Assembly (NCBI GenBank): GCA_964016885.1
Contig: OZ024754.1
Location: 37,758,001 to 37,822,000 of the forward strand
Length of the DNA: 64,000 bases
Direction of reading: 5' to 3'
From: Eledone cirrhosa
Lineage: Eukaryota
Shown: positions 1,809 through 59,106 of the stretch, piece by piece
Layout of the letters: every line of letters begins with the position of its first letter
How positions within the stretch are numbered: position 1 is the first letter of the stretch
Translations under genes and position numbers: made by a program
Notes under the pieces: generated by a model
The model's database searches: none
What the model was told of the DNA's origin: nothing
What the model saw: the letters and a program-made list of their open reading frames with translations, nothing else

Positions 1809-2658
1809 GTGCAACGTTTGACAGCTTTATGGATAACAGATATGTTAGCTTTGGAATCCTTTCTGAGCTTTTTTACAATAGTCGTAATACATTTACTGAG
1901 CGAAGTATATGGTCGCAAATTCGGCATGCTGGTGTCTTTGAGCGGCACTATCATGAAAATCGTTTTAAGTGCAATGACGATCTACTATACACTTCCATTG
2001 GAGGTCTTATTTGTAGCCAGCGCTATTAATGGCATCACTGGTGGACCTGCGAGCTTTATCACTTGTGCTGTGTCACAGATTACCGATACGTACCCGCACG
2101 AGGAAAATAGTTGCCGTCAATTTATAAGAGCTCAAAATCTTTCATTTGGAATAGCCGGCCTTTTTACAATTTATTTCGGCTTAATCATAGAAATCTTTGG
2201 CTATTTCTCCGCTTGCGTATTTTTGCTCGCTTTAGCTGTACTCAATATAGTCATCATTCTACACCTTCCAGATAACTCCACACAGAAAAAAGACGATTGG
2301 AACTTTTCTAAAATTAAAACGTCGTTTATAAAGATATGGAGCGTAATGACTATTAGGAAACGGTTGTTGTTGTTCTTTTTCATATCAGCCTCACCCATTA
2401 GTTATATGCCTCTTGGAGGACAGACTTTCTATACCACACAATTACTTATTAACAGACCATTTTGCACCAGCATTTTCTTCACCGGATTTACTTTGGCTAT
2501 TTCCGCTTTCACTTTTTTAACACCAAATTACTACTCATACCGACTGAATAAACCAGGTTTTTCGGTCAATACTATAATTGCTGGAAATCTGTTTATCGGA
2601 TTCCTTAGCAGTCTCATCATTACAATAGCAGCAAAAAGAAATACATATTATGATGCAG
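1809..2658 (+). CDS. SLC46-family (PCFT/SLC46A3-like) MFS transporter, copy 1, large exon (exon 2, 850 nt)
   Basis: Pyrimidine tract + AG at 1807-1808, donor GCAG|GTATAA at 2659. Open frame VQRLTALW...LSEVYGRK...INGITGG...SQITDT...LLINRPFC with many TM segments, resembling the SLC46 motifs SDxxGRR, GLxG, ADxS and PLCW. Confidence 0.85.
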
Positions 2659-3015
2659 GTATAACTTTTTTTATTTCTTTTCTTGTGTTTCTTTATCATA
2701 AAAGGCACCTCAATTTGGGGAGGTATTAAAAAAAACTAATAAATGGGTTTAAACTACGAATGTCAGGTGAAGGGTATAAAGTTAGTACATCGTATTCTTT
2801 TATAATCCTTCTAAATTGTAATTCTATTTGTAATATTTTAGTACATTTTTAAACACAAGGAAGAGTTTGCGGTTTAATTTTAGGGCCACTGCAGCTCTTG
2901 AACTCCTCTGGCCACTGCAGCACTAGAATTTCTTTAACCTGTAACACAAATTGACGTAGGGAGAATTTCTGGGGCATTTTTTGGAAAACAATGCATCTTA
3001 TAAGCCGTAAAATAC

Positions 3016-3081
<66 letters not shown>

Positions 3082-3191
3082 TGTTTGCATAGCTACGGCT
3101 TCCTAAATGTTTCTTGTAAACATACCATGTTTCTTTAGAAATACGACATTTCTATACATATTTGTATAAATGTATGCTTGAGGCAAAATCC

Positions 3192-3338
<147 letters not shown>

Positions 3339-3446
3339 TTATTAATGTTATAGTTATAATATTAATGATAGTAGTTATGTCTGATTTACAGGTTGGTATA
3401 TAGCTTAATGCAATGGCGGAGGGTGGGGTCACGCAGAGCTGTAATA

Positions 3447-3632
3447 CACATGTTTCATCAGAGTTTACTAAAATGCTTAATAGTAATTCACATAGAAAAT
3501 ATTAGGAACATCTAATACATAAAATCACTTCACAAAATGCAAAAGTTTCAAAAGATTTTATCTATTAGATGTTCCTAATATTTTCTGTGTGAATTACTAT
3601 TAAGTGTTTTAATAAACTCTGATGAAACATGT
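3447..3632. repeat. Inverted repeat / foldback (~70-bp arms); copies at ~40565-40742 and ~55138-55325
   Basis: acatgtttcatcagagttt...catctaata pairs with tattagatg...aaactctgatgaaacatgt. Confidence 0.75.
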
Positions 3633-3977
3633 GGCTCAGTACAGGTAGAAATGGCTGTCAGTTAAAAATGTTTTAAATCTTTGGTGTTGTTAAAATGTTA
3701 ATGTGTATATATCATGTTTGATATAGAAATGGCTTCTACATTCATTCAAAAGATGAAACAGTTCAAGTCCTGTAGAAGCCATTTCTATATTAAATATGTT
3801 GTTTACACTCTACTAATGTATTGAGAACCTCGATGGTATTAATTGAACGTTCTACCTCACTCAATGAATCTGCCGAATTGCAGTAATGCAATCAGCTGTT
3901 CAGAGTGCACACATTTAATTAATAGTAGAAACGGTGGCTGTGTTTTGGTAGAGATAAAACTAGAAATCTCATTATAT

Positions 3978-4058
3978 ACACAGGGTGACCAAAAATGTAT
4001 ACACACTTTAACACCATTCTAATCAAAGTGTGAATACATTTTGGGGGACACCCTCTGT
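3978..4058. mobile_element. Short Tc1/mariner-like MITE remnant (also ~40777 and ~55670)
   Basis: Terminal CAGGGTG..aaaatgtatacacacttt pairs with aaagtgtgaatacatttt..CACCCT. Confidence 0.45.
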
Positions 4059-4122
4059 GTGTGTGCGTCTGTGCTTACGTATTTTATCTTTCAATTTCTC
4101 TCATTTTTACTAACCTATCTAG

Positions 4123-4206
4123 TTTTGGTCAACAACAACGCTGTCTTTCTGATATTGTATCTGACCATCAGAACCATGTTACCTTCTCTTGAAATTAAAT
4201 TGCACG
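4123..4206 (+). CDS. SLC46-like copy 1, exon 3 (84 nt)
   Basis: CTAAC branch point + AG at 4121-4122, donor G|GTAAAG; phase 1-1, in frame VLVNNNAVFLILYLTIRTMLPSLEIKLHG; conserved in all three copies. Confidence 0.8.
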
Positions 4207-4831
4207 GTAAAGTTATCTTTATGAAAAATCTGAATCACTTGCTCCAATCTCTCTCACTCACTCACTCACTCACTCACTCACTCACTCACTCTCTCTGTCC
4301 CTCTCTCTCCCCCTCTCTCTCTCCTCTCTCTCTCTCAGTCACTCTCTTTCACTTCTTTTGTCTAATGTTCATTCACTGGTGTATGTCTCTCTATCTCCAC
4401 ATCACTCTCACTCCCTCACCCCCTCTCTCTCCCCTCTCTCTCAGTCACTCTCTCTCACTTCTTTTGTCTAATGTTCTTTCACCGACTGTATGTCTCTCCG
4501 TTTTTTTCTTTCGTTTCCTCTCTATTTTTTTCTCTCATTCTCTTTCGTTCTTTCACTGTCTATTTTTATCTCATCCCTCCCTCTCTATCTATGTATATAT
4601 TTATCTCTATATATCTATCTATCTTTCACTGACTGCGTACATGCACATATACGTATCTGATATTTTGTTAAGTTTGTGTCTAAATCTAACCTTGGAGAGA
4701 CATGCTACCTCCTCCTTCAAGCGAATGCTTACATGAGTGAACTCTACTAAAAGTATCCAAGAAGTCCAGTTGGGGAGTGTTCACCCGGGGACACTGGATT
4801 AATAGTCTGGAAACATTATAAATTTACATTC

Positions 4832-5025
4832 AAAGGCGGTGGATTAGCAGTATCGGTAGAGGGTCGGACGCCATGCTTTCCAGCATAGTTACGTCCCTTT
4901 ACGATCTGAGTTCAAATCCCGCCGAGGTTGACTTTGCCTTTCATCCTTACGGGGTCGATAAAATAAAGTACCAGTAATGCACTGGGTAATTGCTGGCCTT
5001 GTGCCTAAAGTAGAAACAATTATTA
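4832..5025 (+). mobile_element. tRNA-derived SINE with Nin/Deu-like core
   Basis: tRNA-like head with B-box GAGTTCAAATCCC, then GCCTTTCATCCTTACGGGGTCGATAAAATAAAGTACCAG; absent at the homologous site in copies 2 and 3. Confidence 0.75.
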
Positions 5026-5048
5026 ATTTACATTCTGTCCCCTATTTT

Positions 5049-5335
5049 AGTGGTCTCCAATCTTTTTTATACCACGTGCCGGCTTGATGCCAGACATTCT
5101 TTCCGTGGTCGGTCCAGTAGTTGCTCATATGTGTTATTTAAGTACATTTCGATAAAGAGAGCAATAATAAAAACAGAAATTTATTAAAGTAGATGATTAT
5201 TGAATATTTAAACAAATCTTTTAAAATTAAAGTCCAATATTCAATTTATCTATTATATAATATATAATTTTAAACAAGTTAATTATTTCTTTGTGGCCCG
5301 GTAGCAAATGATCTGTGACCTGGTGGTTCCCCTAT
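5049..5335. mobile_element. Degenerate hAT-like MITE (shared by all three copies)
   Basis: Starts tagtggtctccaatctttttt and ends ...gtggcccgg...tggtggttccc, resembling Charlie-type ends. Confidence 0.35.
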
Positions 5336-5377
5336 TTTACATAAGTTATATATTTCTTTTGTCTCTTTATTCTTTAG

Positions 5378-5534
5378 GTTATCTCTATGCCTTGTTGTTC
5401 ACTATGAATTCATTTGGTACAACACTAATGTTACCTCTACTCAATACGATATATTTGAAAACATTCACATACTTTCCTGGTGCTGTATTTTGCCCCTATG
5501 CCGCAATCCTTTTTATTGCTACAGTCATTCAAAT
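5378..5534 (+). CDS. SLC46-like copy 1, exon 4 (157 nt)
   Basis: Polypyrimidine TTTAG acceptor, AT|GTAAGT donor; GYLYALLFTMNSFGTTLMLPLLNTIYLKTFTYFPGAVF resembles SLC46 TM11-12 (N.IY..T....PG..F). Confidence 0.85.
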
Positions 5535-5659
5535 GTAAGTAGACAATTCTTTTGTTATTGGCAGTATCGGTAGAGGGTCGGACGCCATGCTTTCCAGCAT
5601 AGTTACGTCCCTTTACGATCTGAGTTCAAATCCCGCTGAGATTGACTTTGCCTTTCATC

Positions 5660-6610
5660 TAAAGATTAAAGTTGTAGAAAAGCTAGGAATTACCAGAAAA
5701 TCCCTGATCAGCAAGACACATCCTCTTTAAGAAAACCCACTGTACGAATAAGAAATGTGTTATATGTAGAATGAACCCCCAGATAAATTGTAAAACTAGA
5801 AATGTAGTCTATAGCATAATATGTACAGAGGGAATTTTCAGAAACATGACAACGACATACAAAGGTGAGATAGCTCAAAGCACAGCACAAAGAATAGACC
5901 AACACTGGGGGGAACTAAAAGGACAAAAAAACAACAAAAAAATGGTTCAGTACTATATGAACACTCCAGACAAAAACATGACCTTAATATAGACAACATA
6001 GCAATTAAAATAATATCTAAGCATAGAAATGACTTAACAAGTAAGGCGAATTAGAGAAGCAACTGAGATAGAACTAAGAAAACCAAAATTAAACAGAAAG
6101 ACCGAATGAAATAACAACAACCATACCCAAACAATACTGACCTCAGGGAAATAGAAATAAATAAATAAATAAATAAATAAATAAATACACAAGTACAATA
6201 ACAACAAACATATAAATACACACTAGTGAACAAAGATAGAATACAAAAACAAAAACACATACACTCAAATGCGAACACACACACCAAACATTAAATACAC
6301 ACGCAAACGCATGCGCAGAGACAGAGACAAGAAGAAATAAATACATAAAAAAAATGAAAGGCTTTACAATACAACGGGAGGAAACATAATAGTACCACTG
6401 ATGCTGTCGCATATGTGTGATGAAAGAACTTTTATATATATTTATATCTGTATTTTTAACCGTTGATCAATCAATGATAAACATTGATTGCCAGATAAAT
6501 TAACTATGGAGATATAAAAGATACAGAAAGAAAACCAACCCAAACCAAACAGTGAGTGTGCTCTGTTATTATTTCTGGCAATATTATAACAATATGACCC
6601 TTCCCAAGTA
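5660..6610 (+). mobile_element. Degenerate Penelope-like 3' fragment (GIY-YIG + pLTR) in intron 4
   Basis: NCKTRNVVYSIICTE...RIDQHWGELK, homologous to 13370-14330, with frameshifts. Confidence 0.8.
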
Positions 6611-6859
6611 TATATATATATATATATGTAACAAATGTAAGTTAACAGGTAATCTTTGTTTTGTTTTTTGTTGTTGTTGTTCTTTTTTCTGTCCAATATT
6701 TCGTGACCTAAAAGTCCCTTCTTCAGGGTTTAAGGAACTTTCAGAGGATAATGTTCCACAAAAAAACAAAACAAATATTACCAGGTAACTTACTTTTCAT
6801 TCCTCATCTTACAGTCCATTTTGTATTGTTTAGCCTTCTATCTCTTTCCACGTTATATA

Positions 6860-7279
6860 TATTACCTCTCTAAGACAATGAGACTGGATCGAGATCTCTG
6901 GCGCCATGCAGTTGTACAGAAGACCCGACTGCCATTGCATACAAACCTACAGTCAGAAGGCACCTCTTAACCCAATGTACAGCCCACCCCATATACACTG
7001 CACCATCCTCTCTTTCCCGTTCCGTCCACTGTGTCAATGACACAACAGTCCACACTGTAAGGTGGTTGTGTAGGTGACACGGTAAAAAGGCTCCCAGTCC
7101 ACACTGTAAATGTGGTTGGTGTTAGGAAGGGCATCCAGCTGTAAAACACCTGCCAGAAACACTTCCATACGAACGAGACACGGTCTCCCGACCATTCCTG
7201 CATCAAATGGAACCTAACCGTCTAACCCATGCTAGCGTGGAAGGTGGATCTTAAACGATAATGGTAATGATGATGATGA

Positions 7280-7282
<3 letters not shown>
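6860..7282 (+). mobile_element. RTE-tail-related SINE/LINE 3' remnant
   Basis: gtggttggtgttaggaagggcatccagc...aacccatgctagcgtggaa...ttaaacgatgatg; copies near 15680, 29450, 45175, 48100, 57430(-), 58615 and 60500. Confidence 0.65.
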
Positions 7283-7373
<91 letters not shown>

Positions 7374-8074
7374 TGTATATATATATATATACATATAAAT
7401 TAATAAAATAATGAATAAACAAAGAAACAGTTCCTTATATTAAAAAATTCATCATTTTACGATCGTTTCTAGGATATATATGTTAGTGTTGGTATGCATA
7501 TCCTATAGATCTATGTAAAATTTTTACAAACTATCAGAGGGAATATACATACCTACACATATATATGCTGTCTTCAGAAATAATGATATTTGTTTATTGA
7601 AAAAACCAACAAAGATTTAATACAATAGGTCTGTTTGGGAACAGGTTTTGAATTGACCAATAGAAAGATAGTGAAGGTCAAGATAGTAATATAGTAGTAA
7701 AAGAACCTTAATTTATGGGTAGAGGAAGGTAGATTTCAGTTTTGGATGGAAAGAATATTATGAATGAAAGATTATTTTAGGGATGAGAATAGGTCATATG
7801 CTGACCTCAGAAATAATTATATTTGTTCATTGAATAAAACCATCAAAGATTTAATATAGTAGGTCTGTTTGGGAACAGGTTTTGAATTAACCAATAGAAA
7901 TTTAATAATTGGCCAAATGGTAAAATAGTAGTAATTGAAATTTATTTTAGGGGTAGAAGAAGGCAGGTTTCAGTTTTGAATGGAAGGAGTATGAAGATTG
8001 AAAAAGTTATTTTAGGGGTGAAAATAGGTCAGGTCAGTAAAAAGTAACACGAAAAGTTGCTGTTATAAAAGAAT

Positions 8075-8258
8075 AATTGTTTCTACTTTAGGCACAAGGC
8101 CACCAATTACCCAGTGCATTACTGGTACTTTATTTTATCGACCCCGTAAGGATGAAAGGCAAAGTCAACCTCGGCGGGATTTGAACTCAGATCGTAAAGG
8201 GACGTAACTATGCTGGAAAGCATGGCGTCCGACCCTCTACCGATACTGCCAATCCACT
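8075..8258 (-). mobile_element. tRNA-derived SINE (same family as 4832)
   Basis: Near-exact reverse complement of 4840-5025. Confidence 0.75.
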
Positions 8259-8487
8259 AAAAGAATAATGCCAATGTAAATATCTAAGGAGACTAAAATT
8301 TTACGATAAAAGTATTAGTGAAAAAAATATATATGGAATTTACATCTATGAAAAGAATATAAATTAATTTAATTGATGGGTATATTTATATTGATAAAAT
8401 TATATTAATGCATATAGATATGATAAATAAGAGTTAGATGTAATTGAAGAGTGCTGTTAATGACGAGGGGAAATTAAAAAAATATAA

Positions 8488-8525
<38 letters not shown>

Positions 8526-8531
<6 letters not shown>

Positions 8532-11500
8532 TAAAATAACAGATTAAAGTTTAAGCAAAGAATCGCTGCTTTCACCCTTAACGGGATCTTCTGAAACTAA
8601 CAAAGTCAATCTGTAAACGCAGAACTGGATATTTCAAAAAACGTTGCAACCGGAGGAAGACAGGAAGACGATACTTTGGTTCGTGGAAACGTTCGCTGGC
8701 AAAGAACGGGAAAAAACGAATAATACGTTATTAATAGGAGCGGTGAAAAACAATTACGCGCAAAGACAGAACCACGTTTATGGTATAAAAGAGGTCGTAG
8801 ACTAATGTTCTCTTAGGTGGTGCATAGAGACGTTCTCTGGCAATGAACCAAAAAGCGAAGATAATAAGTCATATGTGGAGCGTGGAGAAAAATAGCATGC
8901 AAAGACAAAACCACGTAAATGGTATAGCAGAAGTTGTAGACTAAAATTCTAACTAGGAGACCAAATGAACTCCGCTACAGAGTTAAGAACAATGTAAATA
9001 AATACAATACAGAAGTAATAGAAACAAATAAATACATACACGCAAACAGATACGTACATACACAAGCATACGCAAAACCTTACCATAGGTATACAAAACC
9101 ACGCACATATAAATATGTGTGTGTGTGTATGCTTGTGTACAAATAAATAAATAATTATATAAACGTATATAAGTAAATAAATACGTATATAACAAGCGCA
9201 CACACATACCTACAAATACACGAATGTTCGGAGACGTAAGTCAACTAAAACAAGAAGTACACATATACACACACCCACTATACGTACGATATTGCATACT
9301 CACGCAAACGCAAAACTCCCGTATACACATAGCCAAACCCTAAATACCAGAATATGTAAAAATTATACGCCATAACAGTCAAATATACGTACGAGAAGGT
9401 ATACATACCTTCACAAAACATACGGGTAATATATACTTACCTATGCAAATAAGTAACGGAATAAACAAAACATATACTTAGCTCCCACATCAAGACGTAA
9501 AATATCCACGTATAGATCGTGCTATCCGTTAGGGTATAACGTGGGGCTGTAATACAGGAAAGTTTTGTGCAATTTATGTTTACAAGCCGAAATTGCCTCA
9601 GATTTTTTGTTTAAGATGTGGTCTGTGGCGTAGAGTATTTCCAGGGCCTCAGCGGCGCAGAGGTCACATGGTCTTTTATTTCCGTTATACGATCTAGCCC
9701 TAGCTAGGATCTCTCAGTGTAACTTATAGTGGGTGTGGTTGTCTTTTAGACTCCAGATATAAGCTGAAAGTGACGTCATATTCTTTCTTAGAGGGTAACG
9801 AAAAGAATGGGTATGCATGTAAAGACGCTGCTTGAAGCTATTGGCGGTTAACCCTATGTAGGCTCTACGGGACGTGGGTGTTACAACCTTACATTTGTAG
9901 ACAATGTTACTAGAGAGGCATTTCCCGGATAGGGGGCAATCAGCCCGATTCCTACAATTACAGTTAGTACTAACTACAGGGTTGCACGTGTTCCTACGGC
10001 TAGGTAGTTTAGCTAAATTTGAAGCTGTGATGTTATGTGCAAGGTTAGGAGTCGTAGAGTAAGAAATTTTAATAGTATTTCTATTAAAAATTTTACTATA
10101 TTTATGTGTAGGTGGAAAATGCTTCGCAATAAGGGAAAGAAAGATCTTAGCTAATGGTGTGACCACCTCCATATTATATGGTGGGTTAAACCAACAAATG
10201 CGACGGGATCTATTTCTTCTAGGTCTATTTTCGTACTCTGTATATGCTACCTTATCGACAAATCCACTTCGAGCAAGAGCTTCATTGTAATAAGTGGAAT
10301 GGTCGTTGAAAATGCGCTCGTTGGTGGAAAGACGGGAAAGCCTCAACGAAACGTTTTTTACCAGGTTCTTGGTTATACTGGCAGGATGGTTGGAATGCTT
10401 ACTTATGTAATTAAGCGTATCATTCGGCTTTCTATACGGGTAATACAACCCATTCAATAAATTGAGGGTAACGTTGAGGTAATTAACGACCGAGAGATTG
10501 GCCTCAACCTGTATAGAGAGGTTGAAGCCTTTAAAGAAGGCTGTGAGTTCTTTTCTGAACCTGTCGCAAGCACGAGGTCCGCACTTAGTCATGGTCAAAA
10601 GATCATCGTCACAGTACAACCCACCGCCCGCGTTGGGGAATTCGTCCTTGATAGAGAAAAGAAGGAAAAGGCCAATAAGATCAGTAACCTCCGCAGAGTC
10701 ACTGGCGCCCATACTCACGTCGAATGGGGTACTATTGGATTTTTTAATCCAAATAGAGTCGTCGAAATTAATCACCGACTTTCGGGCATTAAGGATGACA
10801 TCAACTTCGAAATCCTTAGCCACTGTGAGTGTTTTAGCGAAATTGATAGCTCTAAGGAGAAGTGGTAAAGTGATGGAGGAGTAGTAATTGTTGATGTCGA
10901 ATTGGATAAAACGGCAATGTTCCTTGTTACATATGCCGTTGAACCAATCAATCACCGCGAAAGAATTGTTCCACAGTGCGAGAGGGGCCAAACTTCTAAT
11001 TTCAGGTATAATTCTATCAAGAATCGTTTTACTAAGTCTACCTAAATCGGACTTCGTAGGGTTAATAAGCCGAATAGAGGGGTTGTTCGGAAAATTGGAT
11101 TTGTGATCCTTCAGGGTAAAGTGTGGAGAGATAGGGTCCAGAGGTTCGGTCCGGTCCAGGATGTTGAGATCGGATGTGATTTTAAACCCAGCATCGTTGA
11201 TTTCATTGATGACACACCGATTAGTTTTACGGCAATCCTTAGTTACAGCATTATGTTATGTAGTAGTTGATGGGAGTTTTGCGTCTGCGTGAGTATGCAG
11301 TATCGTACGTATGGTGGGTGTGTGTATATGTGTACTTCTTGTTTTAGTTGACTTACGTCTCCGAACATTCGTGTATTTGTAGGTATGTGTGTGCGCTTGT
11401 TATATACGTATTTATTTACTTATATACGTTTATATAATTATTTATTTATTTGTACACAAGCATACACACACACACATATTTATATGTGCGTGGTTTTGTA

Positions 11501-12067
11501 TACCTATGGTAAGGTTTTGCGTATGCTTGTGTATGTACGTATCTGTTTGCGTGTATGTATTTATTTGTTTCTATTACTTCTGTATTGTATTTATTTACTT
11601 TGTTCTTAACTCTGTAGCGGAGATTCATTTGGTCTCCTAGTTAGAATTTTAGTCTACAACTTCTGTTATACCATTTACGTGGTTTTGTCTTTGCATGCTA
11701 TTTTTCTCCACGCTCCACATATGACTTATTATCTTCGCCTTTTCGTTCATTGCCAGAGAACGTCTCTATGCACCACCTAAGAGAACATTAGTCTACGACC
11801 TCTTTTATACCATAAACGTGGTTCTGTCTTTGCGCGTAATTGTTTTTCACCGCTCCTATTAATGACGCATTATTCGTTTTTTCCCGTTCTTTGCCAGCGA
11901 ACGTTTCCACGAACCAAAGTATCGTCTTCCTGTCTTCCTCCGGTTGCAACGTTTTTTGAAATATCCAGTTCTGCGTTTACAGATTGACTTTGTTAGTTTC
12001 AGAAGATCCCGTTAAGGGTGAAAGCAGCGATTCTTTGCTTAAACTTTAATCTGTTATTTTAATAAAT
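8526..12067 (-). mobile_element. Penelope-like retroelement, 5'-truncated, with ~790-bp inverted pLTR arms (8526-9320 / 11272-12067)
   Basis: Long inverted repeat seen directly; internal RT + GIY-YIG ORF; flanked by (TA)n. Confidence 0.9.
9714..10991 (-). pseudogene. PLE reverse transcriptase + GIY-YIG endonuclease (partial, probably inactive)
   Basis: FDINNYYSSI, MGASDSAEVTDL, GLYCDDDL (YRDD-like), WFNPPY, CNC...CPLSGKC, NIVYKC...YIGLT..FKQR; a premature stop at 9714 precedes further coding-like sequence (KILARA...CDLC..E). Confidence 0.85.
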
Positions 12068-12153
12068 ATTTGCTCTACGGTTCTTATATATTTGATATAT
12101 ATTTTCCTTATCGAGCCCTCTTTGGATTTTAGTCTTCAATTTTATTATTATTA

Positions 12154-12276
<123 letters not shown>

Positions 12277-12389
12277 TATATATATATATATATAATTATT
12301 GGGGGGGGGGGGGTTAAATTTATTAGTGAGAAATAATAAATATATAGAGATTTCAAGGAACATAGAATCATAACCTGAAATTAAAACAT

Positions 12390-12572
12390 GGATTGGCAGT
12401 ATCGGTAGAGGGTCGGACGCCATGCTTTCCAGCATAGTTACGTCCCTTTACGATCTGAGTTCAAATCCCGCCGAGGTTGACTTTGCCTTTCATCCTTACG
12501 GGGTCGATAAAATAAAGTACCAGTAATGTACTGGATAATTGCTGGCCTTGTGCCTAAAGTAGAAACAATTAT
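12390..12572 (+). mobile_element. tRNA-derived SINE (Nin/Deu-like core)
   Basis: Near-identical to 4840-5025. Confidence 0.75.
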
Positions 12573-12894
12573 ATATGTTTACTTAATGGTATCAATTTTA
12601 GGAAAAGATAGTTGTAAGAAGGAAAGTAAAATTATGTAGTTCATCAGTAGTAGAATATTAATTATAGGTTAACTAAATTAAAAATAGTTTTTATATTAAT
12701 TTCTAAAATGTATATTAATTAGGTTTATAATATTTAAAGGTTTTTCTCAGTTTATGATTACACGATATTATTAATTCCTGTCGCTTATTTAATAGGATAT
12801 CCTTAGATTTCATTATTTCAAAAAGTTCTTGGGAACATAATCTACATTCATATCTATTCATATCTATATATATATATACATATATATATAGACG

Positions 12895-13849
12895 AGAGAG
12901 CCCAAATTCTCCACTCACACTATGCTAAACCCATGGCCTCTAAATACCTGATACTCAAAAACTCAGCAATGTCCAGTAGTGCTAAGTTTAATATTCTGAT
13001 CGCAGATTTGGTACGAGTGATGAAGAATGTATCCCGCGTGTGCGACCCAACAGAAATGGAAAGACACATCCAACACTTCATCAACCGCATGCAGTTCTCA
13101 GGCTACAACCAAAGAGACAGAGTCGGAGTATACGAAGGAGCCATGGAGAAGTATAAGACCCTCATAGAACTGGACATGAAAGGAATTTGCCCATTATACA
13201 GGAGCAAATCATGGAATAGCTTAGATAGGGCTAGACATAAGATAGGGAAAGCCACGTCATGGTACGACAACCAGAGATACCAGAGTGTCATGTTTGTGGA
13301 CGCTACCCCTGGAGGGAAATTAGCTAACCAGTGTAGAAAGGCCCTGAGAAAGACCCACTTGAAAATAAAGGTGGTAGAAAAGCCAGGAACCACCATAAAA
13401 TCCCTGATCAGCAAAACCTACCCTTTTAAGAAAACCCACTGTACCAATAGGAAATGTATCATATGTAACGTGAACCCCCGGATAAACTGTAAAACTAGAA
13501 ACGTAGTTTATAGCATAAGATGTACAGAGGGTACTTGCAGAAACATGACAACAACATACATAGATGAGACAGCTCGTAGCATAGGTGAAAGGATAGACCA
13601 ACACTGGGGGGAACTAAAAGGACGAAAAAACGGGTCAGTACTATACGAACATGCTAGACAACAACATGACGGTAACATAGACAACATAGAAATTAGAATA
13701 ATATCCAAACATAGAAATGACCCAGCAGATAGGCAAATCAGAGAGGCCAGTGAAATAGAAATTAGAAGACCAAGGCTAAACAGAAAGAATGAATGGAATA
13801 ACAACAACACCCAAACAAACAACACTGACCTAAGAGAAGTATAAATAAG

Positions 13850-13880
<31 letters not shown>

Positions 13881-14325
13881 ATACATACACAAGCACAATA
13901 ACAAGCACATAAACACACACTAGTCACCCATCACACAGGAAACAAAACACTATACACACACGCAAACGCATGCGCAAAGAAGACAAAATAAAATAAACAA
14001 ACAAGCAAATAAATAAATAAATATATAGACAGACTGAATAAAAATGGCGTAGACATACAATACAACAGGAGGAAAATATAGCACCACTGACGATGTTGCA
14101 GATGTGCAACGAAAGATTTATGATAAACTATATATATGTGTTTGTGTCTATATTGTATCTGTATTATTTTTGACCGTCGGTCAGTCAATGGCAACAATGA
14201 GGACCTAGTAAGTTAGATTACCGATATAAAACACACAGAAGCGAGAAGCGAAAACCAACCATACAGTGAGTGTGTTCTGTTATTAATTCTGGCAATATTA
14301 CACAAATATGACCCTCCCCAAGTAT

Positions 14326-14332
<7 letters not shown>
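12895..14332 (+). mobile_element. Penelope-like element 3' portion (RT thumb, Cys linker, GIY-YIG, pLTR); ORF 12933-13844
   Basis: SGYNQ..R, CTNRKCIIC, CKTRNVVYSIRC, YIDETARSIGERIDQH, RQIREA.EI...P.LNRK; ends at (TA)n. Confidence 0.88.
14083..14122 (+). ncRNA. Minimal hammerhead-ribozyme-like motif in PLE pLTR (also ~37066 +, ~35250 -)
   Basis: CTGACGA-t-GTTGCA gatg TGCAAC-GAAA-gatt-TA; core and stem II intact, stem I weak. Confidence 0.5.
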
Positions 14333-14406
<74 letters not shown>

Positions 14407-14439
14407 CGAACCATGGGTTATTTTTATTTGTTTTAACAG

Positions 14440-14485
14440 TGGACTGCGGTTTTCAGAAGTTTGGAAGAAAATATGGAGTCATTAA
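14440..14485 (+). CDS. SLC46-like copy 1, terminal exon 5
   Basis: TTGTTTTAACAG acceptor; phase matches exon 4, giving IGLRFSEVWKKIWSH*; conserved in three copies; AATAAA follows at 14564. Confidence 0.7.
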
Positions 14486-18799: not shown

Positions 18800-18850
18800 T
18801 TTTCTTTCCGCCATTTTTTGGCGACAGTTAGATCAAGAACAACGCTATTG
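18800..18850 (+). promoter_or_regulatory. Possible promoter/TSS: CTTTCC + YY1-like CCGCCATTTT
   Basis: Motif at 18808-18817, conserved at 50443-50452; downstream part recurs at 63971-64000; lies upstream of each exon array. Confidence 0.25.
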
Positions 18851-18907
18851 CTCGAGAATTTACCTTTCAATTTTTTTTCCAATTGAAAACGCAACAAGTC
18901 ACACATA

Positions 18908-19047: not shown

Positions 19048-19664
19048 ACGCACACATACACACACACACACATATACATACACACATACACACACACACG
19101 CACACATGAACACATATATACTCACACACGCACACACATAGATATATACACCATCTCCTCCAATTGGTAAAATAATATTGACGAAAGATAATTTCCGTCA
19201 ATATTATTTTACCAATTGCTGGCCTTGTGCCAAAAGTAGAAATAATTATTTTACCAAACAATGGACTGGGGTAATTGCTGTCCTTGTGCCAAAAGTAGAA
19301 ATATTATTTTACCAAACATCTCAGCAAGCAGCTGTATGTAAGTAAATCAATAGAGAAGGTACGCAACTGACATATTATTTCGCTACCTAAACATTTCCTT
19401 CGATGCGAATTAAAATTCCCAATGTAGAAAGAAAGGAAATAGAAAAATAATAGAAAATAAAACCAAAATTCGGATAATTTTCGTTCATGCTGACCGTCTA
19501 CAATTAATATAATTTTAAAAGAATTTTACAGAACTGTTTGGATTTTATATTAATATTTCGAGATAAGTAAGCAGTTCACTTCTTTCAAATGTTAACTACA
19601 TTCACACACACACACAGACACACACACACAGACACATACATACATGCGTGCATGTATGCATGCA

Positions 19665-20690
19665 TACATGGTGGCTCCCAACTCGTTTTCGAGTACGGCC
19701 ACTACTTTATATCCATGTAGGAGAACCCCTACTGATGCGCTAAACGAGTGTGACTTTTTAGTCCAGCCAGCAACTTGAAAACTGTTACAAACACTACATT
19801 TGTGACAATATTTGACACATAGTGCTGGGCCCATGGTACCATGTGACGACAAGTGCAGAGAGATCTCCAGATATAAAGCAATGCCTGTGCCGTGAAGCTT
19901 TTATAGTGAGCAAAGGCACTGCACAAAGCCAGTCCCACTCTCTTAACCAAGATGATATTTACCAAAAAGAAGAACAAGTCAACATCATTGGATACCATCA
20001 GGGTTGCAAGTGTTATATCAGAGTTTTCCTTCTCCTAGAATTCTGCCTTGACAAAGACTAAGGGGTCATCTCTCCCGGTGATTTTGGATGTCTATTGAAT
20101 CTTAAGAGCTCCCTTGCCCTTTGACAGGTTTTGTTTTTAGTCCTGCAGGATGTCCAAAGTCACCCTCCTCACCAAGAAACCTTGGTGGGGTTGCCAGTTT
20201 AGTCGCCAACGACCCGACCATGAGACAGGTTGTACTGGGATACATGTTACCAGTAGCACCAACTGGTGACCTGACATATTACATACATACATACATACAT
20301 ACATACATGGTGGCTGCCAACTCGTTTTCGAGTACGGCCACTACTTTATATACATGTAGGAGAACTCCTACCGATGCGCTGAACGAGTGTGACTTTTTAG
20401 TCCAGCCAGCGACTTGAAAACTCTGGTACAAACACTACACTTGTGACAAATATTGACACATAGTGTTGGACCCATGATACCATGTGATGACAAGTGCAGA
20501 GAGATCTCCAGATACAAAGCAATGCCTGTGCCGTGAAGCTTTTATAGTGAGCAAAGGCACTGCACAAAGCCAGTCCCACTCTCTTAACCAAGATAATATT
20601 TACCAAAAAGAAGAACAAGTCAACATCATTGGAGTTTTCCTTCTCCTAGAATTCTGCCTTGACAAAGGCTAAGGGGTCATCTCTCCCGGA
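19665..20690. repeat. Locally duplicated unclassified repeat (19665-20080 vs 20305-20690); diverged relative at ~51665-51960
   Basis: Direct duplication beginning atggtggct(c/g)ccaactcgttttcgagtacggccac, embedded in (TACA)n. Confidence 0.65.
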
Positions 20691-20879
20691 TACATACATA
20701 CATACATACATACATACACACATACATGCATACATACATACATACATACATACAGTGTAAGTGTGTGTGTGTGTACATACATGCATACATACATACACAC
20801 ACATACACACACACACACACACACCCATACACACACAGACGCACACACATACAGACACACACAGACACACGCACATGCT

Positions 20880-21022
20880 AAAATTTATTCGAATTTGTAG
20901 GGATATCCGACTAAATACATAATTCATTTTACAAGGATTTGCTACAAACAACATGGCTGAACGCAACAACACCAACAACATTAAGAAAGTAGAGAAGGAA
21001 AACAACAAGAGAGGTAAACAAA

Positions 21023-21068
<46 letters not shown>

Positions 21069-24000
21069 TTTATTCGAATTCGTAGAGGGATCTGACCAAA
21101 TACATTATTCATTTTACAAGGATTTACTACAAACAACATGGCTGAACGCAGCAAGACCAGCAACATTAAGGAAGCAGCGAAGAAAAGCAGCGAGAAAGGT
21201 AAACAAAATTTACATACATACATACATACAAACATCTTTTCGAATTCGTAGAGATATCTGACTAAATACATAATTCATTTTACAAGAATCTGCTACAGGC
21301 AGCAAGGCTGAACACAAGGACACCAAAATCATTAAGGAAGTACCGAAGAAAAAGAACAAGAAAGGTAAACAAAATTTACATACATACATACATACTTACA
21401 TCTTTTATTCGAATTCGTAGAGATACCCGACTAAATACATGATTCATTTTACAAGGATTTGCTACAAAGAGCCTGGCTAAACACAGCCTCAACAACATTA
21501 TGGAAGTACCGATCGAAAACAATGAGAAAGGTAAACAAAATGTACATACATACATACATCTTTTATTCAAATTCGTAGAGGTATCCGACTAAATACATTA
21601 TTCATTTTACAAGGATTTGCTACAAGCAGCAAGGCTGAACACAAGGACACCAAAATAATTGAGGAAGTACCGAAGAAAAAGGACAAGGAAGGTAAACAAA
21701 ATTTACATATATACACACATAACATCTTTTATTCGAATTCGTAGAGATACCCGACTAAATACATAATTCATTTTACAAGGATTTGCTACAAAGAGCCAGG
21801 GTGAACACATCCTCAACAACACTATGGAAGTACCGAACGAAAACAACGAGAAAGGTAAACAAAATGTACATACATACATACATCTTTTATTCAAATTCGT
21901 AGAGGTATCCGACTAAATACATTATTCATTTTACAAGGATTTGCTACAAGCAGCAAGGCTGAACACAAGGACACCAAAATAATTGAGGAAGTACCGAAGA
22001 AAAAGGACAAGAAAGGTAAACAAAATTTACATACATACACACATAACATCTTTTATTCGAATTCGTAGAGATACCCGACTAAATACATAATTCATTTTAC
22101 AAGGATTTGCTACAAAGAGCCAGGGTGAACACATCCTCAACAACACTATGGAAGTACCGAACGAAAACAACGAGAAAGGTAAACAAAATGTACATACATA
22201 CATACATCTTTTATTCAAATTCGTAGAGGTATCCGACTAAATACATTATTCATTTTACAAGGATTTGCTACAAGCAGCAAGGCTGAACACAAGGACACCA
22301 AAATAATTGAGGAAGTACCGAAGAAAAAGGACAAGAAAGGTAAACAAAATTTACATACATACACACATAACATCTTTTATTCGAATTCGTAGAGATACCC
22401 GACTAAATACATAATTCATTTTACAAGGATTTGCTACAAAGAGCCAGGGTGAACACATCCTCAACAACACTATGGAAGTACCGAACGAAAACAACGAGAA
22501 AGGTAAACAAAATGTACAGACATACATACATACATAAATCTTTCATTCGAATTCGTAGAGATACACGACTAAATACATTATTTATTTTACAAGGATTTGC
22601 TACAAACGGCATGGCAGAACACAACATCAACAACATTATGAAAATACCGAACGAAAACAATGAGAAAGGTAAACAAAATGTACATACATACATCTTTTAT
22701 TCGAATTCGTAGACGTATCCGACTAATACATAATTCATTTTACAAGGATTTGCTACAAAGAGCCTGGCTGAACACATCCTCAAGTACAGTATGGGAGTAC
22801 TGAACGAAAACAATGAGAAAGGTAAACAAAATGTACATACATACATATATCTTTTATTCGAATTCGTAGAGGTATCCGACTAATACATAATTCATTTTAC
22901 AAGGATTTGCTACAAAGAGCCTGGCTGAACACATGCTCAACAACACTATGGAAGTACCGAACGAAAACAATGAGAAAGGTAAACAAAATGTACATACATA
23001 CATATATCTTTTATTCGAATTCGTAGAGGTATCCGACTAAATACATTATTCATTTTACAAGGATTTGCTACAAGCAGCAAGGCTGAACAGAAGGACACCA
23101 AAATAATTGAGGAAGTACCGAAGAAAAAGGACAAGAAAGGTAAACAAAATTTACATACATACATCTTTTATTCGAATTTGTAGAGATACCCGACTAAATA
23201 CATAATTCATTTTACAAGGATTAGCTATAAAGAGCTTGGCTGAACACATCCTCAACACCACTATGGAAGTACCGAACGAAAACAATGAGAAAGGTAAACA
23301 AAATGTACATACATACATATATCGTTTATTCGAATTCGTAGAGATATGCGACTAAATACATTATTCATTTTACAAGGATTTGCTACAAGCAGCAAGCCTG
23401 AACACAAGGACACCAATATAATTGAGGAAGTACCGAAGAAAAAGGACAAGAAAGGTACACAAAATTTACATACATACATACATATATCTTTTATTCGAAT
23501 TCGTAGAGATACCCGACTAAATACATAATTCATTTTACAAGGATTTACTACAAAGAACCTGCATGAACCCATGCTCAACACGACTACGGAAGTACCGAAC
23601 GAAAACAATGAGAAAGGTAAACAAAATGTACATACATACATATATGTTTTATTAGAATTCGTAGAGGTATCCGACTAAATACATTATTCATTTTACAAGG
23701 ATTTGCTACAAGCAGCAAGGCTGAACACAAGGACACCAAAATAATTGAGGAAGTACCGAAGAAAAAGGACCAGAAAGGTAAACAAAATTTACATACATAC
23801 ATACATCTTTTATTCGAATTCGTAGAGATACCCGACTAAATACATAATTCATTTTACAAGGATTTGCTACAAAGAGCCTGGCTGAACACATCCTCAACAC
23901 CACTATGGAAGTACCGAACGAAAACAATGAGAAAGGTAAACAAAATGTACATACATACATATATCTTTTATTCGAATTCGTAGAGGTATCCGACTAAATA

Positions 24001-26082
24001 CATTATTCATTTTACAAGGATTTGCTACAAGCAGCAAGCCTGAACACAAGGACACCAAAATAATTGAGGAAGTACCGAAGAAAAAGGACAATAAAGGTAA
24101 ACAAAATTTACATACATACATACATATATCTTTTATTCGAATTCGTAGAGATACCCGACTAAATACATAATTCATTTTACAAGGATTTGCTACAAAGAGC
24201 CTGCATGAACCCATGCTCAACACGACTATGGAAGTACCGAACGAAAACAATGAGAAAGGTAAACAAAATGTACATACATACATATATCTTTTATTAGAAT
24301 TCGTAGAGGTATCCGACTAAATACATTATTCATTTTACAAGGATTTGCTACAAGCAGCAAGGCTGAACACAAGGACACCAAAATAATTGAGGAAGTACCG
24401 AAGAAAAAGGACAAGAAAGGTAAACAAAATTTACATACATACATACATCTTTTATTCGAATTCGTAGAGATACCCGACTAAATACATAATTCATTTTACA
24501 AGGATTTGCTACAAAGAACCTGGCTGAACTCATCCTCAACACCACTATTGAAGTACCGAACGAAAACAATGAGAAAGGTAAACAAAATGTACATACATAC
24601 ATATATCTTTTATTCGAATTCGTAGAGGTATCCGACTAAATACATTATTCATTTTACAAGGATTTGCTACAAGCAGCAAGCCTGAACACGAGGACACCAA
24701 AATAATTCAGGAAGTACCGAAGAAAAAGGACAAGAAAGGTAAACAAAATTTACATACATACATACATATTTCTTTTATTCGAATTCGTAGAGATACCGGA
24801 CTAAATACATAATTCATTTTACAAGGATTTGCTACAAAGAGCCAGGGTGAACACATCCTCAACAACACTATGGAAGTACCGAACGAAAACAATGAGAAAG
24901 GTAAACAAAATGTACATACATACATATATCTTTTATTAGAATTCGTAGAGGTATCCGACTAAATACATTATTCATTTTACAAGGATTTGCTACAAGCAGC
25001 AAGGCTGAACACAAGGACACCAAAATAATTGAGGAAGTACCGAAGAAAAAGGACCAGAAAGGTAAACAAATTTACATACATACATACATCTTTTATTCGA
25101 ATTCGTAGAGATACCAGACTAAATAGATAATTCCTTTTACAAGGATTTGCTACAAAGAGCCTGGCTGAACACATCCTCAACACCACTATGGACGTACCGA
25201 ATGAAAACAATGAGAAAGGTAAACAAAATGTACATACATACATATATCTTTTATTCGAATTCGTAGAGGTATCCGACTAAATACATTATTCATTTTACAA
25301 GGATTTGCTACAAGCAGCAAGGCTGAACACAAGGACACCAAAATAATTGAGGAAGTACCGAAGAAAAAGGACAAGAAAGGTAAACAAAATTTACATACAT
25401 ACATACATACATCTTTTATTCGAATTCGTAGAGATACCCGACTAAATACATAATTCATTTTACAAGGATTTGCTACAAAGAGCCTAGCTGAACTCATCCT
25501 CAACACCACTATTGAAGTACCGAACGAAAACAATGAGAAAGGTAAACAAAATGTACATACATACATATATCTTTTATTCGAATTCGTAGAGGTATCCGAC
25601 TAAATACATTATTCATTTTACAAGGATTTGCTACAAGCAGCAAGCCTGAACACAAGGACACCAAAATAATTGAGGAAGTACCGAAGAAAAAGGACAAGAA
25701 AGGTAAACAAAATTTACATACATACATACATATTTCTTTTATTCGAATTCGTAGAGATACCCGACTAAATACATAATTCATTTTACAAGGATTTGCTACA
25801 AAGAGCCAGGGTGAACACATCCTCAACAACACTATGGAAGTACCGGACGAAAACAATGAGAAAGGTAAACAAAATGTACATACATACATATATCTTTTAT
25901 TAGAATTCGTAGAGGTATCCGACTAAATACATTATTCATTTTACAAGGATCTGCTACAAAGAGCCTGGCTGAACAAATCCTCAACAACATTATGGAAGTA
26001 CCGATCGAAGACAATGAGAAAGGTAAACAAAATTTACATACATACATACATACATCTTTTATTCGAATTCGTAGAGGTATCC
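20880..26082 (+). repeat. Tandem array of 32 ~160-bp exon+intron units, with A/B alternation
   Basis: Unit: ttcattttacaag|GATTTGCTACA...AAAG|gtaaacaaaat(taca)n..ttcgaattcgtagag.tatccgactaaatac. Confidence 0.95.
20936..26022 (+). CDS. 32 putative 75/78-nt phase-1 exons encoding 25/26-aa repeats (GFATKSLAEHILNTTMEVPNENNEK / GFATSSKAEHKDTKIIEEVPKKKDKK)
   Basis: First exon 20936-21013, last 25948-26022. AG|...|GT boundaries in every unit, exon lengths only 75 or 78, no in-frame stop in the units translated; non-triplet indels are confined to the intron part. Confidence 0.7.
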
Positions 26083-26505
26083 ATGCTACTAGACTTCCTA
26101 GCAGCCAGGTCAAACAGTGCCTTGAAACAACTATGCCTGTAAGAAATTTGACACTTCGTGTACCATCTGAGTCTACCTCGACTGTTGTGGAAAACACTAT
26201 CGATAATAGCACAATCGTTCGGCTACCTGCCCAGGATCTGCTGCCTGCCAAACCGAAGAGGGCAAACTATGCAAATATCCGCCGCTCTCGCATATGTTTG
26301 TGCTAGAGCCTGTAGCAGTGGAGACTTCCAGCATTCTCGGCTTCTGGACCACATCCCTACTCACTGCTATCGGAGAAGAGTTGGCTGCCCGCCTAAGGGA
26401 GCCCCGAAGTGAAAGGGTTGTTCTAGCTTGTCTCCCTCATCGTACTCTAGGACAATGCATGCATTCTCCATCCTGCCTGTCGGGACCCATAGGTGGAGTA
26501 TAAGT
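26083..26505 (+). mobile_element. Non-LTR (CRE-like, restriction-like endonuclease C-terminus) fragment abutting the array
   Basis: KPKRANYANI followed by frameshifted EPVAVETSSILG...IGEELAARLREPR, resembling the K..KY...P.AVET.G.LG motif. Confidence 0.5.
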
Positions 26506-26815: not shown

Positions 26816-26915
<100 letters not shown>

Positions 26916-26971: not shown

Positions 26972-27948
<977 letters not shown>

Positions 27949-30673: not shown

Positions 30674-30891
30674 GTCAAGGTGGAAAGAAGGAACAGAAGA
30701 AAGTAACAATCCGCTGGTTTGAACGCTCAGAATTGATATTAATTTTCTTCACCCCTGTGATGCTCTTGTCCCAGACACTCTTGCATTACTACGTGGACTG
30801 GCGAATAGGAAATAATTACTATCAAAACCAAAATACCGTCTTCTCTACGTCTTGTAACCGTCGCTTCCAGTTCTCAAACGATCATCATAAG
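30674..30891 (+). CDS. SLC46-like copy 2, TM1 exon (equivalent to vertebrate exon 1)
   Basis: GQGGKKEQKKVTIRWFERSELILIFFTPVMLLSQTLLHYYVDWRIGNNYYQNQNTVFSTSCNRRFQFSNDHHK ends AAG|GTAAGA, phase 0, in frame with VQRLTALW. Matches the SLC46 E...F......Q....QY...R.....C pattern. The 5' boundary (AG at 30672-30673) is inferred. Confidence 0.7.
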
Positions 30892-39186: not shown

Positions 39187-40036
39187 GTGCAACGTTTGAC
39201 AGCTTTATGGATAACAGATATGTTAGCTTTGGAATCCTTTCTGAGCATTTTTACAATATTCGTAATACATTCACTGAGCGAAGTATATGGTCGCAAATTC
39301 GGCATGCTGGTGTCTTTAAGCGGCACTATCATGAAAATCGTTTTAAGTGCAGTGACGATCTACTATACACTTCCATTGGAGGTCTTATTTGTAGCCAGCG
39401 CTATTAATGGCATCACTGGTGGACCTGCGAGCTTTATCACTTGTGCTGTGTCACAGATTACCGATACGTACCCGCACAAAGATAAGAGCTGCCGTAAATT
39501 TATAAAAGCTCAAAATCTTTCATTTGTAATAGCCGGCCTTTTTACAATTTATTTCGGCTTAATCATAGAAATCTTTGGCTATTTCTCCGCTTGCGTATTT
39601 TTGCTCCCTTTAGCTGTACTCAATATAGTCATCATTCTACACCTTCCAGATAACTCCACACAGAAGGAAGTCGATTGGAACTTTTCTAAAATTAAAACGT
39701 CGTTTATAAAGATATGGAACGTAATGACTATTAGGAAACGGTTGTTGTTGTTCTTTTTCATATCAGCCTCACCCATTAGTTATATGCCTCTTGGAGGACA
39801 GACTTTCTATACCACACAATTACTTATTAACATACCATTTTGCACCAGCATTTTCTTCACCGGATTTACTTTGGCTATTTCCGCTTTCACTTTTTTAACA
39901 CCAAATTACTACTCAGACCGACTGAATAAACCAGGTTTTTCTGTCAATACTATAATTGCTGGAAATCTGTTTGTCGGATTCCTTAGCAGTCTCATCATTA
40001 CAATAGCAGCAAAAAGAAATACATATTATGATGCAG
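39187..40036 (+). CDS. SLC46-like copy 2, exon 2 (850 nt)
   Basis: TTTTAG acceptor, GCAG|GTAT donor, open frame; about 94% amino-acid identity to copy 1 by manual count. Confidence 0.85.
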
Positions 40037-41717: not shown

Positions 41718-41874
41718 GTTATCTCTATGCCTTGTTGTTCACTATGAATTCATTTGGTACAACACTAATGTTACCTCTACTCAATACGATATATTTGAAA
41801 ACATTCACATACTTTCCTGGTGCTGTATTTTGCCCCTATGCCGCAATCGTTTTTATTGCTACAGTCATTCAAAT
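41718..41874 (+). CDS. SLC46-like copy 2, exon 4
   Basis: Homolog of 5378-5534 with intact splice sites. Confidence 0.85.
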
Positions 41875-46190: not shown

Positions 46191-46209
46191 TGGACTGCGG
46201 TTTTCATAA
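46191..46209 (+). CDS. SLC46-like copy 2, terminal exon with earlier stop (IGLRFS*)
   Basis: Same acceptor as 14440; GAA>TAA at 46207. Confidence 0.6.
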
Positions 46210-51538: not shown

Positions 51539-51622
51539 GACTTGATACAAACAACATGGTTCACTACAACAACAACTACACTAAAAATGTACCGAAGACC
51601 AGCAACAAGAAAGGTAAACAAA

Positions 51623-51654
<32 letters not shown>

Positions 51655-52110
51655 GTATACATGATGATGGCTGCCCACTCGTTGTCGAGTATGGCCATTA
51701 CACGATATACCATTCTTAATAATTATTAATTAATTCTATCGTGCAATGCCTGTACGTGAAGATATTTTTTAAAGTGAGGAAAGACTGTACATTGAGCCAA
51801 TCCCACTCTCTGAGCAACAGTAACTATAACCCGAAAGGAAGAAAAGATCAACATCATCGGTAACTACTGAGCCGGAGGTTTTATATCGGAGTTATCCCAG
51901 TTTCCTGAGTTGCCTTCTCCTAGAAGAATGCTCTGACAAAGCTAGGGGTCCTTCACTCCCAGTGGTTTAACCGCGCGATCGGGTGTCCAGCCCGATTATT
52001 TCTATGTTCTCGCGCATATACATAAACATGCACCCATGTATATATACACATATACAACTACATACATACATACATACATACATACATACATACATACATA
52101 CATACATACA

Positions 52111-52141
<31 letters not shown>

Positions 52142-59064: not shown

Positions 59065-59106
<42 letters not shown>

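What the first reader, a model, noticed from the sequence alone, without database searches (positions are those of the whole stretch)
20936..26022. A 'satellite' that looks like a tandem array of 32 symmetric microexons with their introns
Seen: each ~160-bp unit splits into a purine-rich 75- or 78-nt segment bounded by ttcattttacAAG| and AAAG|GTAAAC, and an ~80-110-nt segment containing (TACA)n and a branch-point-like GACTAAA about 25 nt before the AG. Across the two arrays (44 units), the lengths I measured for the first segment were only 75 or 78, and the phase-1 frame had no stop in the units I translated. In contrast, 1- and 4-nt indels occur in the second segment. Spliced together, array 1 gives ~815 aa of K/E/N/T-rich repeats (GFATKSLAEHILNTTMEVPNENNEK alternating with GFATSSKAEHKDTKIIEEVPKKKDKK). 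The ORF track cannot see this. Inference: it is a coding array amplified as exon+intron modules, and any subset of exons could be skipped in frame.
Basis: partly seen in the sequence, partly recalled or inferred. Interest (0 to 1): 0.9.

Follow-up and report, generated by a model that had tools for sequence, protein, structure and literature searches.

The report
Retrotransposon-derived exon array on a transporter
A 160-base scrap of a jumping gene, copied about 360 times in front of six tandem transporter genes, has kept one reading frame open far better than chance, so the copies are likely spliced exons that would give the transporter a charged tail of hundreds to thousands of amino acids, although no RNA has yet shown this.

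Summary
In detail: 44 of 44 window units have a 75- or 78-nt segment, open in phase 1. Each unit is a piece of the 5' end of a dispersed, (TACA)n-targeting non-LTR retrotransposon (R4/Dong-like): the 'exon' holds the start of its ORF, and both splice-like motifs are inherited from it. The locus holds 362 units in six arrays (6 to 240 units). Each array lies in a tandem copy of an SLC46-like MFS transporter gene, upstream of an exon that starts in phase 1 and encodes the first helix. Inheritance alone does not explain the open frame. Only 1 of 319 units with intact AG/GT is broken, against 12 of 80 dispersed copies. Stop gains are 1 of 246 distinct variants (6.6-8.9 expected; P 0.009-0.001), while the other two frames gain stops at the expected rate. 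Amino-acid changes look neutral. Best reading: exonised transposon modules, amplified like a satellite, form a cytosolic N-terminal tail (809 aa for this array) under selection for frame only. No RNA run was available, so splicing is inferred.

The parts
18819..18900 (+). Conserved 5' non-coding element, candidate promoter or first exon of gene copy D
   Evidence: Present before all six arrays and before two array-less paralogs; role inferred
19532..19566 (+). Candidate 35-nt untranslated exon
   Evidence: AG...GT bounded; found before all six arrays and in distant paralog Q; not shown by RNA
19626..20753 (+). Two copies of a ~450-bp (TACA)n-flanked dispersed element
20936..26022 (+). Array D: 32 modules, each a 75/78-nt phase-1 exon-like segment plus a 78-107-nt spacer; first in-frame ATG at 20953
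26081..26208 (+). Remnant of the parent retrotransposon ORF behind the last unit
   Evidence: BLAST with a dispersed element
30674..30891 (+). First-helix exon of transporter copy D, phase 1 to 0; a deletion removed the ancestral acceptor and the exon's own ATG and left a new in-frame AG
39187..40036 (+). Large MFS exon (850 nt, phase 0 to 1) of copy D
   Evidence: 41% identical to XP_014771056.1
40924..41007 (+). 84-nt MFS exon of copy D
41718..41874 (+). 157-nt MFS exon of copy D
46191..46209 (+). Last coding exon of copy D; stop lies 9 codons earlier than in the other four complete copies
1809..14485 (+). 3' exons of the preceding copy C (1809-2658, 4123-4206, 5378-5534, 14440-14485); its array lies left of the window
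51539..54038 (+). Array E: 12 modules, cut by an assembly gap at 54067-54266
55815..59216 (+). 3' exons of copy E (55815-55898, 56670-56826, from 59171); first-helix exon and large exon not found, gap lies where they are expected

Best explanation
Each unit is a fragment of a retrotransposon's 5' end, and the units are likely spliced together as exons and translated from the transposon's ATG into a long, charged, probably disordered N-terminal tail on an SLC46-like transporter. Proposed steps: (1) a (TACA)n-targeting non-LTR element left a truncated copy in the 5' intron of the transporter gene (remnant shown; order inferred). (2) Cryptic AG and GT in the element define a 78-nt phase-1 exon carrying its ATG in a strong context, in frame with the exon that holds the gene's older ATG (sequence shown; use inferred). 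(3) One duplication joined the donor side to the upstream microsatellite; unequal exchange then amplified whole modules into higher-order repeats, and segmental duplication made six gene copies (structure shown; mechanism inferred). (4) Selection removes stops and frameshifts, because either would cut the transporter off from the first ATG, but it ignores amino-acid changes (pattern shown; cause inferred). If all intact units are used the products would be about 600, 5500, 1500, 1250 and 1140 aa.
For: Origin: the acceptor-side 27-mer has 872 exact matches in the genome, 151 of them in the locus. 80 of 81 sampled dispersed copies continue through the whole 'exon' and donor into an ORF with reverse transcriptase. 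The donor-(TACA) junction has 180 matches, all 180 in this locus. Frame selection: 1 of 319 units with intact AG/GT is broken against 12 of 80 dispersed copies (P 2e-8) and 2 of 43 units with a dead splice site (P 0.04). Stop gains are 0 of 245 distinct variants inside exons, or 1 of 246 with a junction stop, against 6.6-8.9 expected (P 0.009-0.001). The other frames gain 20 and 17 stops, with about 16 expected. Frameshifts: none in intact exons, 6-9 events in the shorter non-microsatellite spacer parts (P 0.008-0.001). The transposon ORF behind the last donor is frameshifted in 3 of 3 arrays that keep it. Host gene: 5 of 5 first-helix exons start in phase 1 and the MFS exons are open. Copy D lost its own ATG yet gained an in-frame acceptor. 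The exon chain matches an annotated octopus protein.
Against: No RNA evidence for any junction. The link from array to first-helix exon spans 1.7-10.3 kb of intron and rests on phase alone (1 in 3 by chance, and the five copies share one ancestor). Four of five copies keep their own ATG in the first-helix exon, so they could be made without the tail. dN/dS among transporter copies is about 1 (0.9-2.1, few differences), so their function is not independently shown. 38 units of a dead-donor subtype were amplified too, so amplification is blind to function. One intact-looking unit in array B would create a junction stop, and it was left out of the B length. A 200-exon, 5000-aa tail is a heavy splicing load. 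Variant counts depend on clustering; 298 of 318 intact 75/78-nt units entered that test.
Confidence: 0.62

Rival explanations
1. The exons are used, but mainly as a combinatorial cassette: each mRNA takes a small, variable subset and so diversifies the tail, as schistosome micro-exon genes do.
For: All intact exons are symmetric. There are 25 sequence subtypes and 230 haplotypes. The donors are uniform and modest (GTAAAC in 292 of 319). The spanning-tree count shows fewer synonymous changes than expected (87 against 118-153).
Against: Rarely included exons would tolerate stops, yet almost none exist. The more conservative count shows a neutral synonymous share (54 observed, 55-57 expected). 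The tail is predicted to be cytosolic, so it is not an obvious surface target.
Confidence: 0.15
2. The array is spliced and translated but ends at an unidentified terminal exon, or by read-through at the last donor, giving a repeat protein separate from the transporter.
For: The frame test does not say where the ORF ends. Read-through at the last donor stays open for 9-93 further codons before a stop. Four copies keep a separate ATG for the transporter.
Against: The read-through tails differ between arrays and are frameshifted against the parent ORF. The array always lies between the gene's conserved 5' elements and its first-helix exon, on the same strand and in phase. Copy D has no ATG of its own before the first helix.
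Confidence: 0.13
3. It is a neutral satellite made from a retrotransposon fragment inside an intron; splice motifs, length and open frame are only inherited.
For: The AG, the GT (78 of 80), the 78-nt length (63 of 80) and the open frame are all present in dispersed copies. Dead-donor units amplify as well. Amino-acid changes look neutral.
Against: Array units differ from the element by 14-32% against 5% for dispersed copies, yet are far less often broken. The deficit is specific to one frame and to units with intact splice sites.
Confidence: 0.1

Closest known systems
Titin PEVK region (PMC6469411; abstract and passages seen)
   Same: About 100 short, repetitive, alternatively spliced exons that encode a charged low-complexity segment; copy number varies between lineages.
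   Different: Not titin: no Ig or FN3 exons were seen, the host is an MFS transporter, the modules derive from a retrotransposon, and exon and intron are homogenised together at a 160-bp period.
NBPF / Olduvai (DUF1220) expansion (PMC9313022 abstract; PMC9584774 search listing)
   Same: Lineage-specific amplification of exon+intron modules into higher-order repeats, inside a segmentally duplicated gene family.
   Different: Olduvai units are ~1.6-kb exon doublets; here the unit is one exon in 160 bp, it comes from a retrotransposon, and it is attached to a membrane transporter.
Schistosome micro-exon genes (PMC8293314; passages seen)
   Same: Runs of symmetric exons that can be skipped in frame; an association with transposons.
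   Different: MEG exons are 36 bp or shorter, the proteins carry signal peptides and show high dN/dS; here exons are 75-78 nt, near-identical, themselves transposon sequence, and neutral at the amino-acid level.
R4/Dong non-LTR retrotransposons (PMC7998251; passages seen)
   Same: The parent element has reverse transcriptase, a CCHC motif and a restriction-like endonuclease motif, and sits in microsatellite.
   Different: The target is (TACA)n rather than the (TAA)n reported for most Dong elements; only ~140 bp of its 5' end is amplified.
SLC46 transporters (PCFT, PDB 7bc6; Octopus bimaculoides XP_014771056.1)
   Same: Same fold family and exon chain; 41% identity to the octopus protein in the large exon.
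   Different: The octopus model has a short acidic N-terminal repeat and no array; key PCFT residues are not all kept, so the substrate is open.

Membership tests
Spliced coding exon array | Canonical AG/GT and symmetric length | tested here: met
   319 of 362 units have AG and GT; all 319 have lengths divisible by 3
Spliced coding exon array | Stop and frameshift avoidance beyond a neutral control | tested here: met
   1 of 319 against 12 of 80 broken; frame-specific deficit
Spliced coding exon array | Spliced junctions in RNA | not testable with these tools
   No RNA holder listed; the two runs laid cover the spacers like genomic DNA
R4/Dong non-LTR retrotransposon (parent element) | Reverse transcriptase domain | tested here: met
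   Pfam RVT_1, E 9e-8 and 3e-9
R4/Dong non-LTR retrotransposon (parent element) | C-terminal CCHC and restriction-like endonuclease | tested here: met
   Motif matches in one element; the motif definitions are recalled, no profile hit
R4/Dong non-LTR retrotransposon (parent element) | Microsatellite target | tested here: met
   (TACA)n within 300 nt upstream in 74 of 81 copies; also behind the 3' end in the one element read through
R4/Dong non-LTR retrotransposon (parent element) | Placement in the R4 clade by RT phylogeny | not tested
SLC46-like MFS transporter (host gene) | Homology to SLC46/PCFT | tested here: met
   Named relatives are SLC46A3-like and PCFT-like; a profile with two C2 paralogs hits PDB 7bc6 at 5e-23; the exon alone had no Pfam or PDB hit; Atlas MFS score 0.98
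SLC46-like MFS transporter (host gene) | About 12 transmembrane helices | tested here: inconclusive
   11 segments by simple hydropathy; no structure predicted
PCFT (SLC46A1) proper | Irreplaceable Asp109 in the helix 2-3 loop (PMC8978580) | tested here: not met
   Glu at the aligned place in the window's copies
Schistosome-type micro-exon gene | Exons of 36 bp or less, raised dN/dS | tested here: not met
   Exons 75-78 nt; synonymous share as neutral
Titin PEVK | Embedded between Ig and FN3 exons of titin | tested here: not met
   The flanking coding exons are MFS exons

The most novel reading that the evidence does not exclude
A satellite born from a retrotransposon's start codon has been domesticated as a modular coding exon: the element's own target microsatellite forms the introns, so amplification adds whole exons in frame, and octopod SLC46-like transporters carry cytosolic tails tunable from 150 to 5000 residues by copy number and splicing. 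Charged N-terminal repeats in a neighbouring paralog and in the O. bimaculoides relative suggest repeated selection for such tails.
Probability: 0.35. Interest if true: 0.92.

Novelty: new variant of a known kind. Interest (0 to 1): 0.82.

Why it matters
It would be an unusually complete record of new coding sequence arising from a transposon: the parent element, hundreds of neutral sister copies, dead exons and the decaying remnant all survive as controls. It shows how repeat-masked 'satellite' can hide hundreds of exons, and it separates selection on frame from selection on amino acids. It also makes a general question testable: whether giant disordered tails are adaptive or a ratchet, in which an upstream ATG forces every amplified exon to stay open.

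Tried and rejected
RNA: no RNA holder listed. X1 and X2 (one sample, library not on record) cover spacers and flanks and show no exon-to-exon joint, so they were read as genomic; my first guess that their 0.31 word share meant exon-only RNA was wrong. Word-based protein searches found nothing for the MFS exon or for the unit profile; weak evidence. Pfam and PDB gave nothing for the window's exon alone. Rfam found nothing in 17000-32000. A titin PEVK gene was rejected by the flanking exons. An extracellular-loop position was rejected because the first-helix exon lies after the array. A signal peptide from the small upstream exon would need a donor found only in copy E; left open. A 75/78-period repeat at C14:38.02 Mb is an unrelated 39-bp satellite. 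The 12 stops in the dispersed spanning tree are double-counted; the direct count is 5 of 73 in-frame copies. Spanning-tree P values (1e-6 to 2e-9) are inflated by recombination and not relied on. Three look-ups of earlier findings returned nothing. Ten paper searches (listings only unless stated) showed no report of this locus or of a transposon-derived exon array; subscription papers and supplements were not seen.

Full report
Observation. The window lies at G000:C14:37758001-37822000 of a 3.0-Gb genome; the best protein relative is from Octopus bimaculoides, so a cephalopod source is inferred. Spacers are 78-107 nt with 4-nt and 1-nt differences.

Extent. In 464 kb around the window a profile search gave 367 hits, all on the + strand; 362 have both boundaries and 5 are partial. 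They form six arrays: A 6, B 240, C 44, D 32 (the finding), E 12, F 28. Lengths are 78 x 205, 75 x 154, and one each of 77, 72 and 51. Subtypes form higher-order repeats. The 19-31-kb gaps between arrays are segmental duplicates, mostly 94-99% identical. A second sample (X1 = X2) also holds units and the donor-microsatellite-acceptor junction, so the array is not an assembly artefact.

Origin of the unit. The 27-mer on the acceptor side has 872 exact matches in the genome, 151 in this locus. I fetched 80 stretches around the first 100 listed places, all on C1, giving 81 copies. They are the 5' end of one long dispersed element. 74 of 81 copies have (TACA)n just upstream. This fits the R4/Dong clade as described in PMC7998251 (passages seen); no phylogeny was run. 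So the AG, the branch-like motif, the GT (78 of 80), the 78-nt length (63 of 80) and the open frame are inherited. What is new in the array is the junction of donor side to microsatellite: 180 matches, all in this locus. Arrays B, C and F run on into further element sequence, and D keeps a deleted remnant, which marks the founding insertion.

Is the frame under selection? Dispersed copies are the neutral control: 80 of 81 could be mapped, 7 are frameshifted and 5 have stops, at a median 5% from their majority. Array units differ from that majority by 14-32%. Of 319 units with intact AG and GT none is broken internally and one would form a junction stop: 1 of 319 against 12 of 80, P 2e-8. Copies are not independent, so I counted each distinct variant once against its subtype (298 of 318 intact 75/78-nt units fell in clusters of three or more). 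Stop gains: 0 of 245, or 1 of 246 with the junction case, against 6.6-8.9 expected (P 0.009-0.001); dispersed copies gave 4 of 87 with 2.6 expected. The other two frames gained 20 and 17 stops, about 16 expected each. Frameshift events: 0 per 245 variants against 7 per 87 (P 1e-4), and 6-9 events in the shorter non-microsatellite spacer parts against none in exons (P 0.008-0.001). The internal stop and the 1-nt frameshift both lie in units with a dead CT donor (2 of 43; P 0.04). The element's ORF behind the last donor is frameshifted in 3 of 3 arrays (one or two events). The 25 exon differences listed for the second sample include no stop (these mix array and dispersed copies). Synonymous changes are at the neutral share (54 observed, 55-57 expected): the frame is kept, the residues are free.

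Host gene. Each array precedes exons of an MFS transporter: five intact large exons at 94-100% identity to copy D, plus a 42% paralog P and a broken paralog Q on the other strand. A first-helix exon lies 1.7-10.3 kb behind the array, starts in phase 1 and ends in phase 0, bridging to the large exon. Copies A, B, C, D and F are open through four exons; E lacks two exons at an assembly gap; D stops 9 codons early in its last exon. The chain matches XP_014771056.1, and other named relatives are SLC46A3-like or PCFT-like (5 of 150 hits looked up). The first-helix exon holds an ATG in A, B, C, F and in paralog Q, so that ATG is probably ancestral. Conserved 5' elements lie before every array and before P and Q. 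The insertion therefore sits in a 5' intron. The first unit has an in-frame ATG in strong context in 5 of 6 arrays, the second unit in C, with no out-of-frame ATG before it in the array exons. In D a deletion removed the old acceptor and ATG and left an in-frame AG. By the family's topology the N-terminus is cytosolic (recalled; consistent with passages of PMC8978580). The window's copies have Glu where PCFT needs Asp109, so the substrate is open.

Mechanism. Shown: transposon origin, modular amplification, frame-specific purge of stops, in-phase position before an intact transporter ORF. Inferred: splicing, translation from the transposon ATG, fusion to the transporter, and the reason for selection. 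The simplest reason is that a stop or frameshift would turn the strong upstream ATG into a repressive upstream ORF, so the tail need not be adaptive. Against pure neutrality of tails, paralog P has a 130-aa charged repeat in the same position within one exon and the O. bimaculoides protein has a short acidic repeat. Model lengths are 598, 5519, 1497, 1251 and 1143 aa for A, B, C, D, F, with the junction-stop unit left out of B.

Limits. No RNA run was listed. dN/dS among transporter copies is near 1 on few differences (pairs with B not computed). The array-to-transporter link rests on phase and position. Dead-donor units amplified freely.

Comparison and verdict. It works like titin PEVK or NBPF/Olduvai amplification and resembles schistosome micro-exon genes in symmetry, but belongs to none. 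Exonisation of transposons and exon-module amplification are each known (recalled; PMC6469411, PMC9313022, PMC8293314 as listed). I found no report of the two combined in ten searches of open papers. New variant of a known kind; interest 0.82.

Noticed in passing
L015:8556-9152 (minus strand): Paralog P carries about 130 aa of a five-residue K/E/N/G repeat before its first helix, inside one exon: an independent charged tail.
   Followed up: partly
window 612-899 and the matching place in copies A, B, D: An inverted, duplicated fragment of the large MFS exon about 1 kb upstream of the exon itself; it could form a hairpin.
   Followed up: no
window ~61500-64000 and L029-L030: A 6.5-kb inverted duplication (98%) that carries two more copies of the paralog-P type 5' element.
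   Followed up: no
window 19626-20753 and many places in array B: A ~450-bp element flanked by (TACA)n, often beside the retrotransposon; possibly a non-autonomous partner.
   Followed up: no
window 9714-11255 (-), 12807-13844 (+), 35555-36797: Long ORFs that look like Penelope-type retroelement fragments (label recalled, not tested).
   Followed up: no
C14 array B, subtype K: 38 units share a CT donor and were amplified inside a higher-order repeat; they are probably skipped pseudo-exons.
   Followed up: partly
runs X1/X2 on window 39120-40045: Long contigs match copy D almost exactly and one diverged contig has a 1-nt insertion, so that sample may hold a different set of gene copies; contig depth is no copy number.
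   Followed up: no
L129:3296-4537 and 6974-8302: Two typical SLC46-like genes in tandem on C2, most of the protein in one open frame; one matches PDB 7bc6 at 1e-26.
   Followed up: partly
L048:7100-10000: An unrelated 39-bp satellite with stops in all frames.
   Followed up: yes
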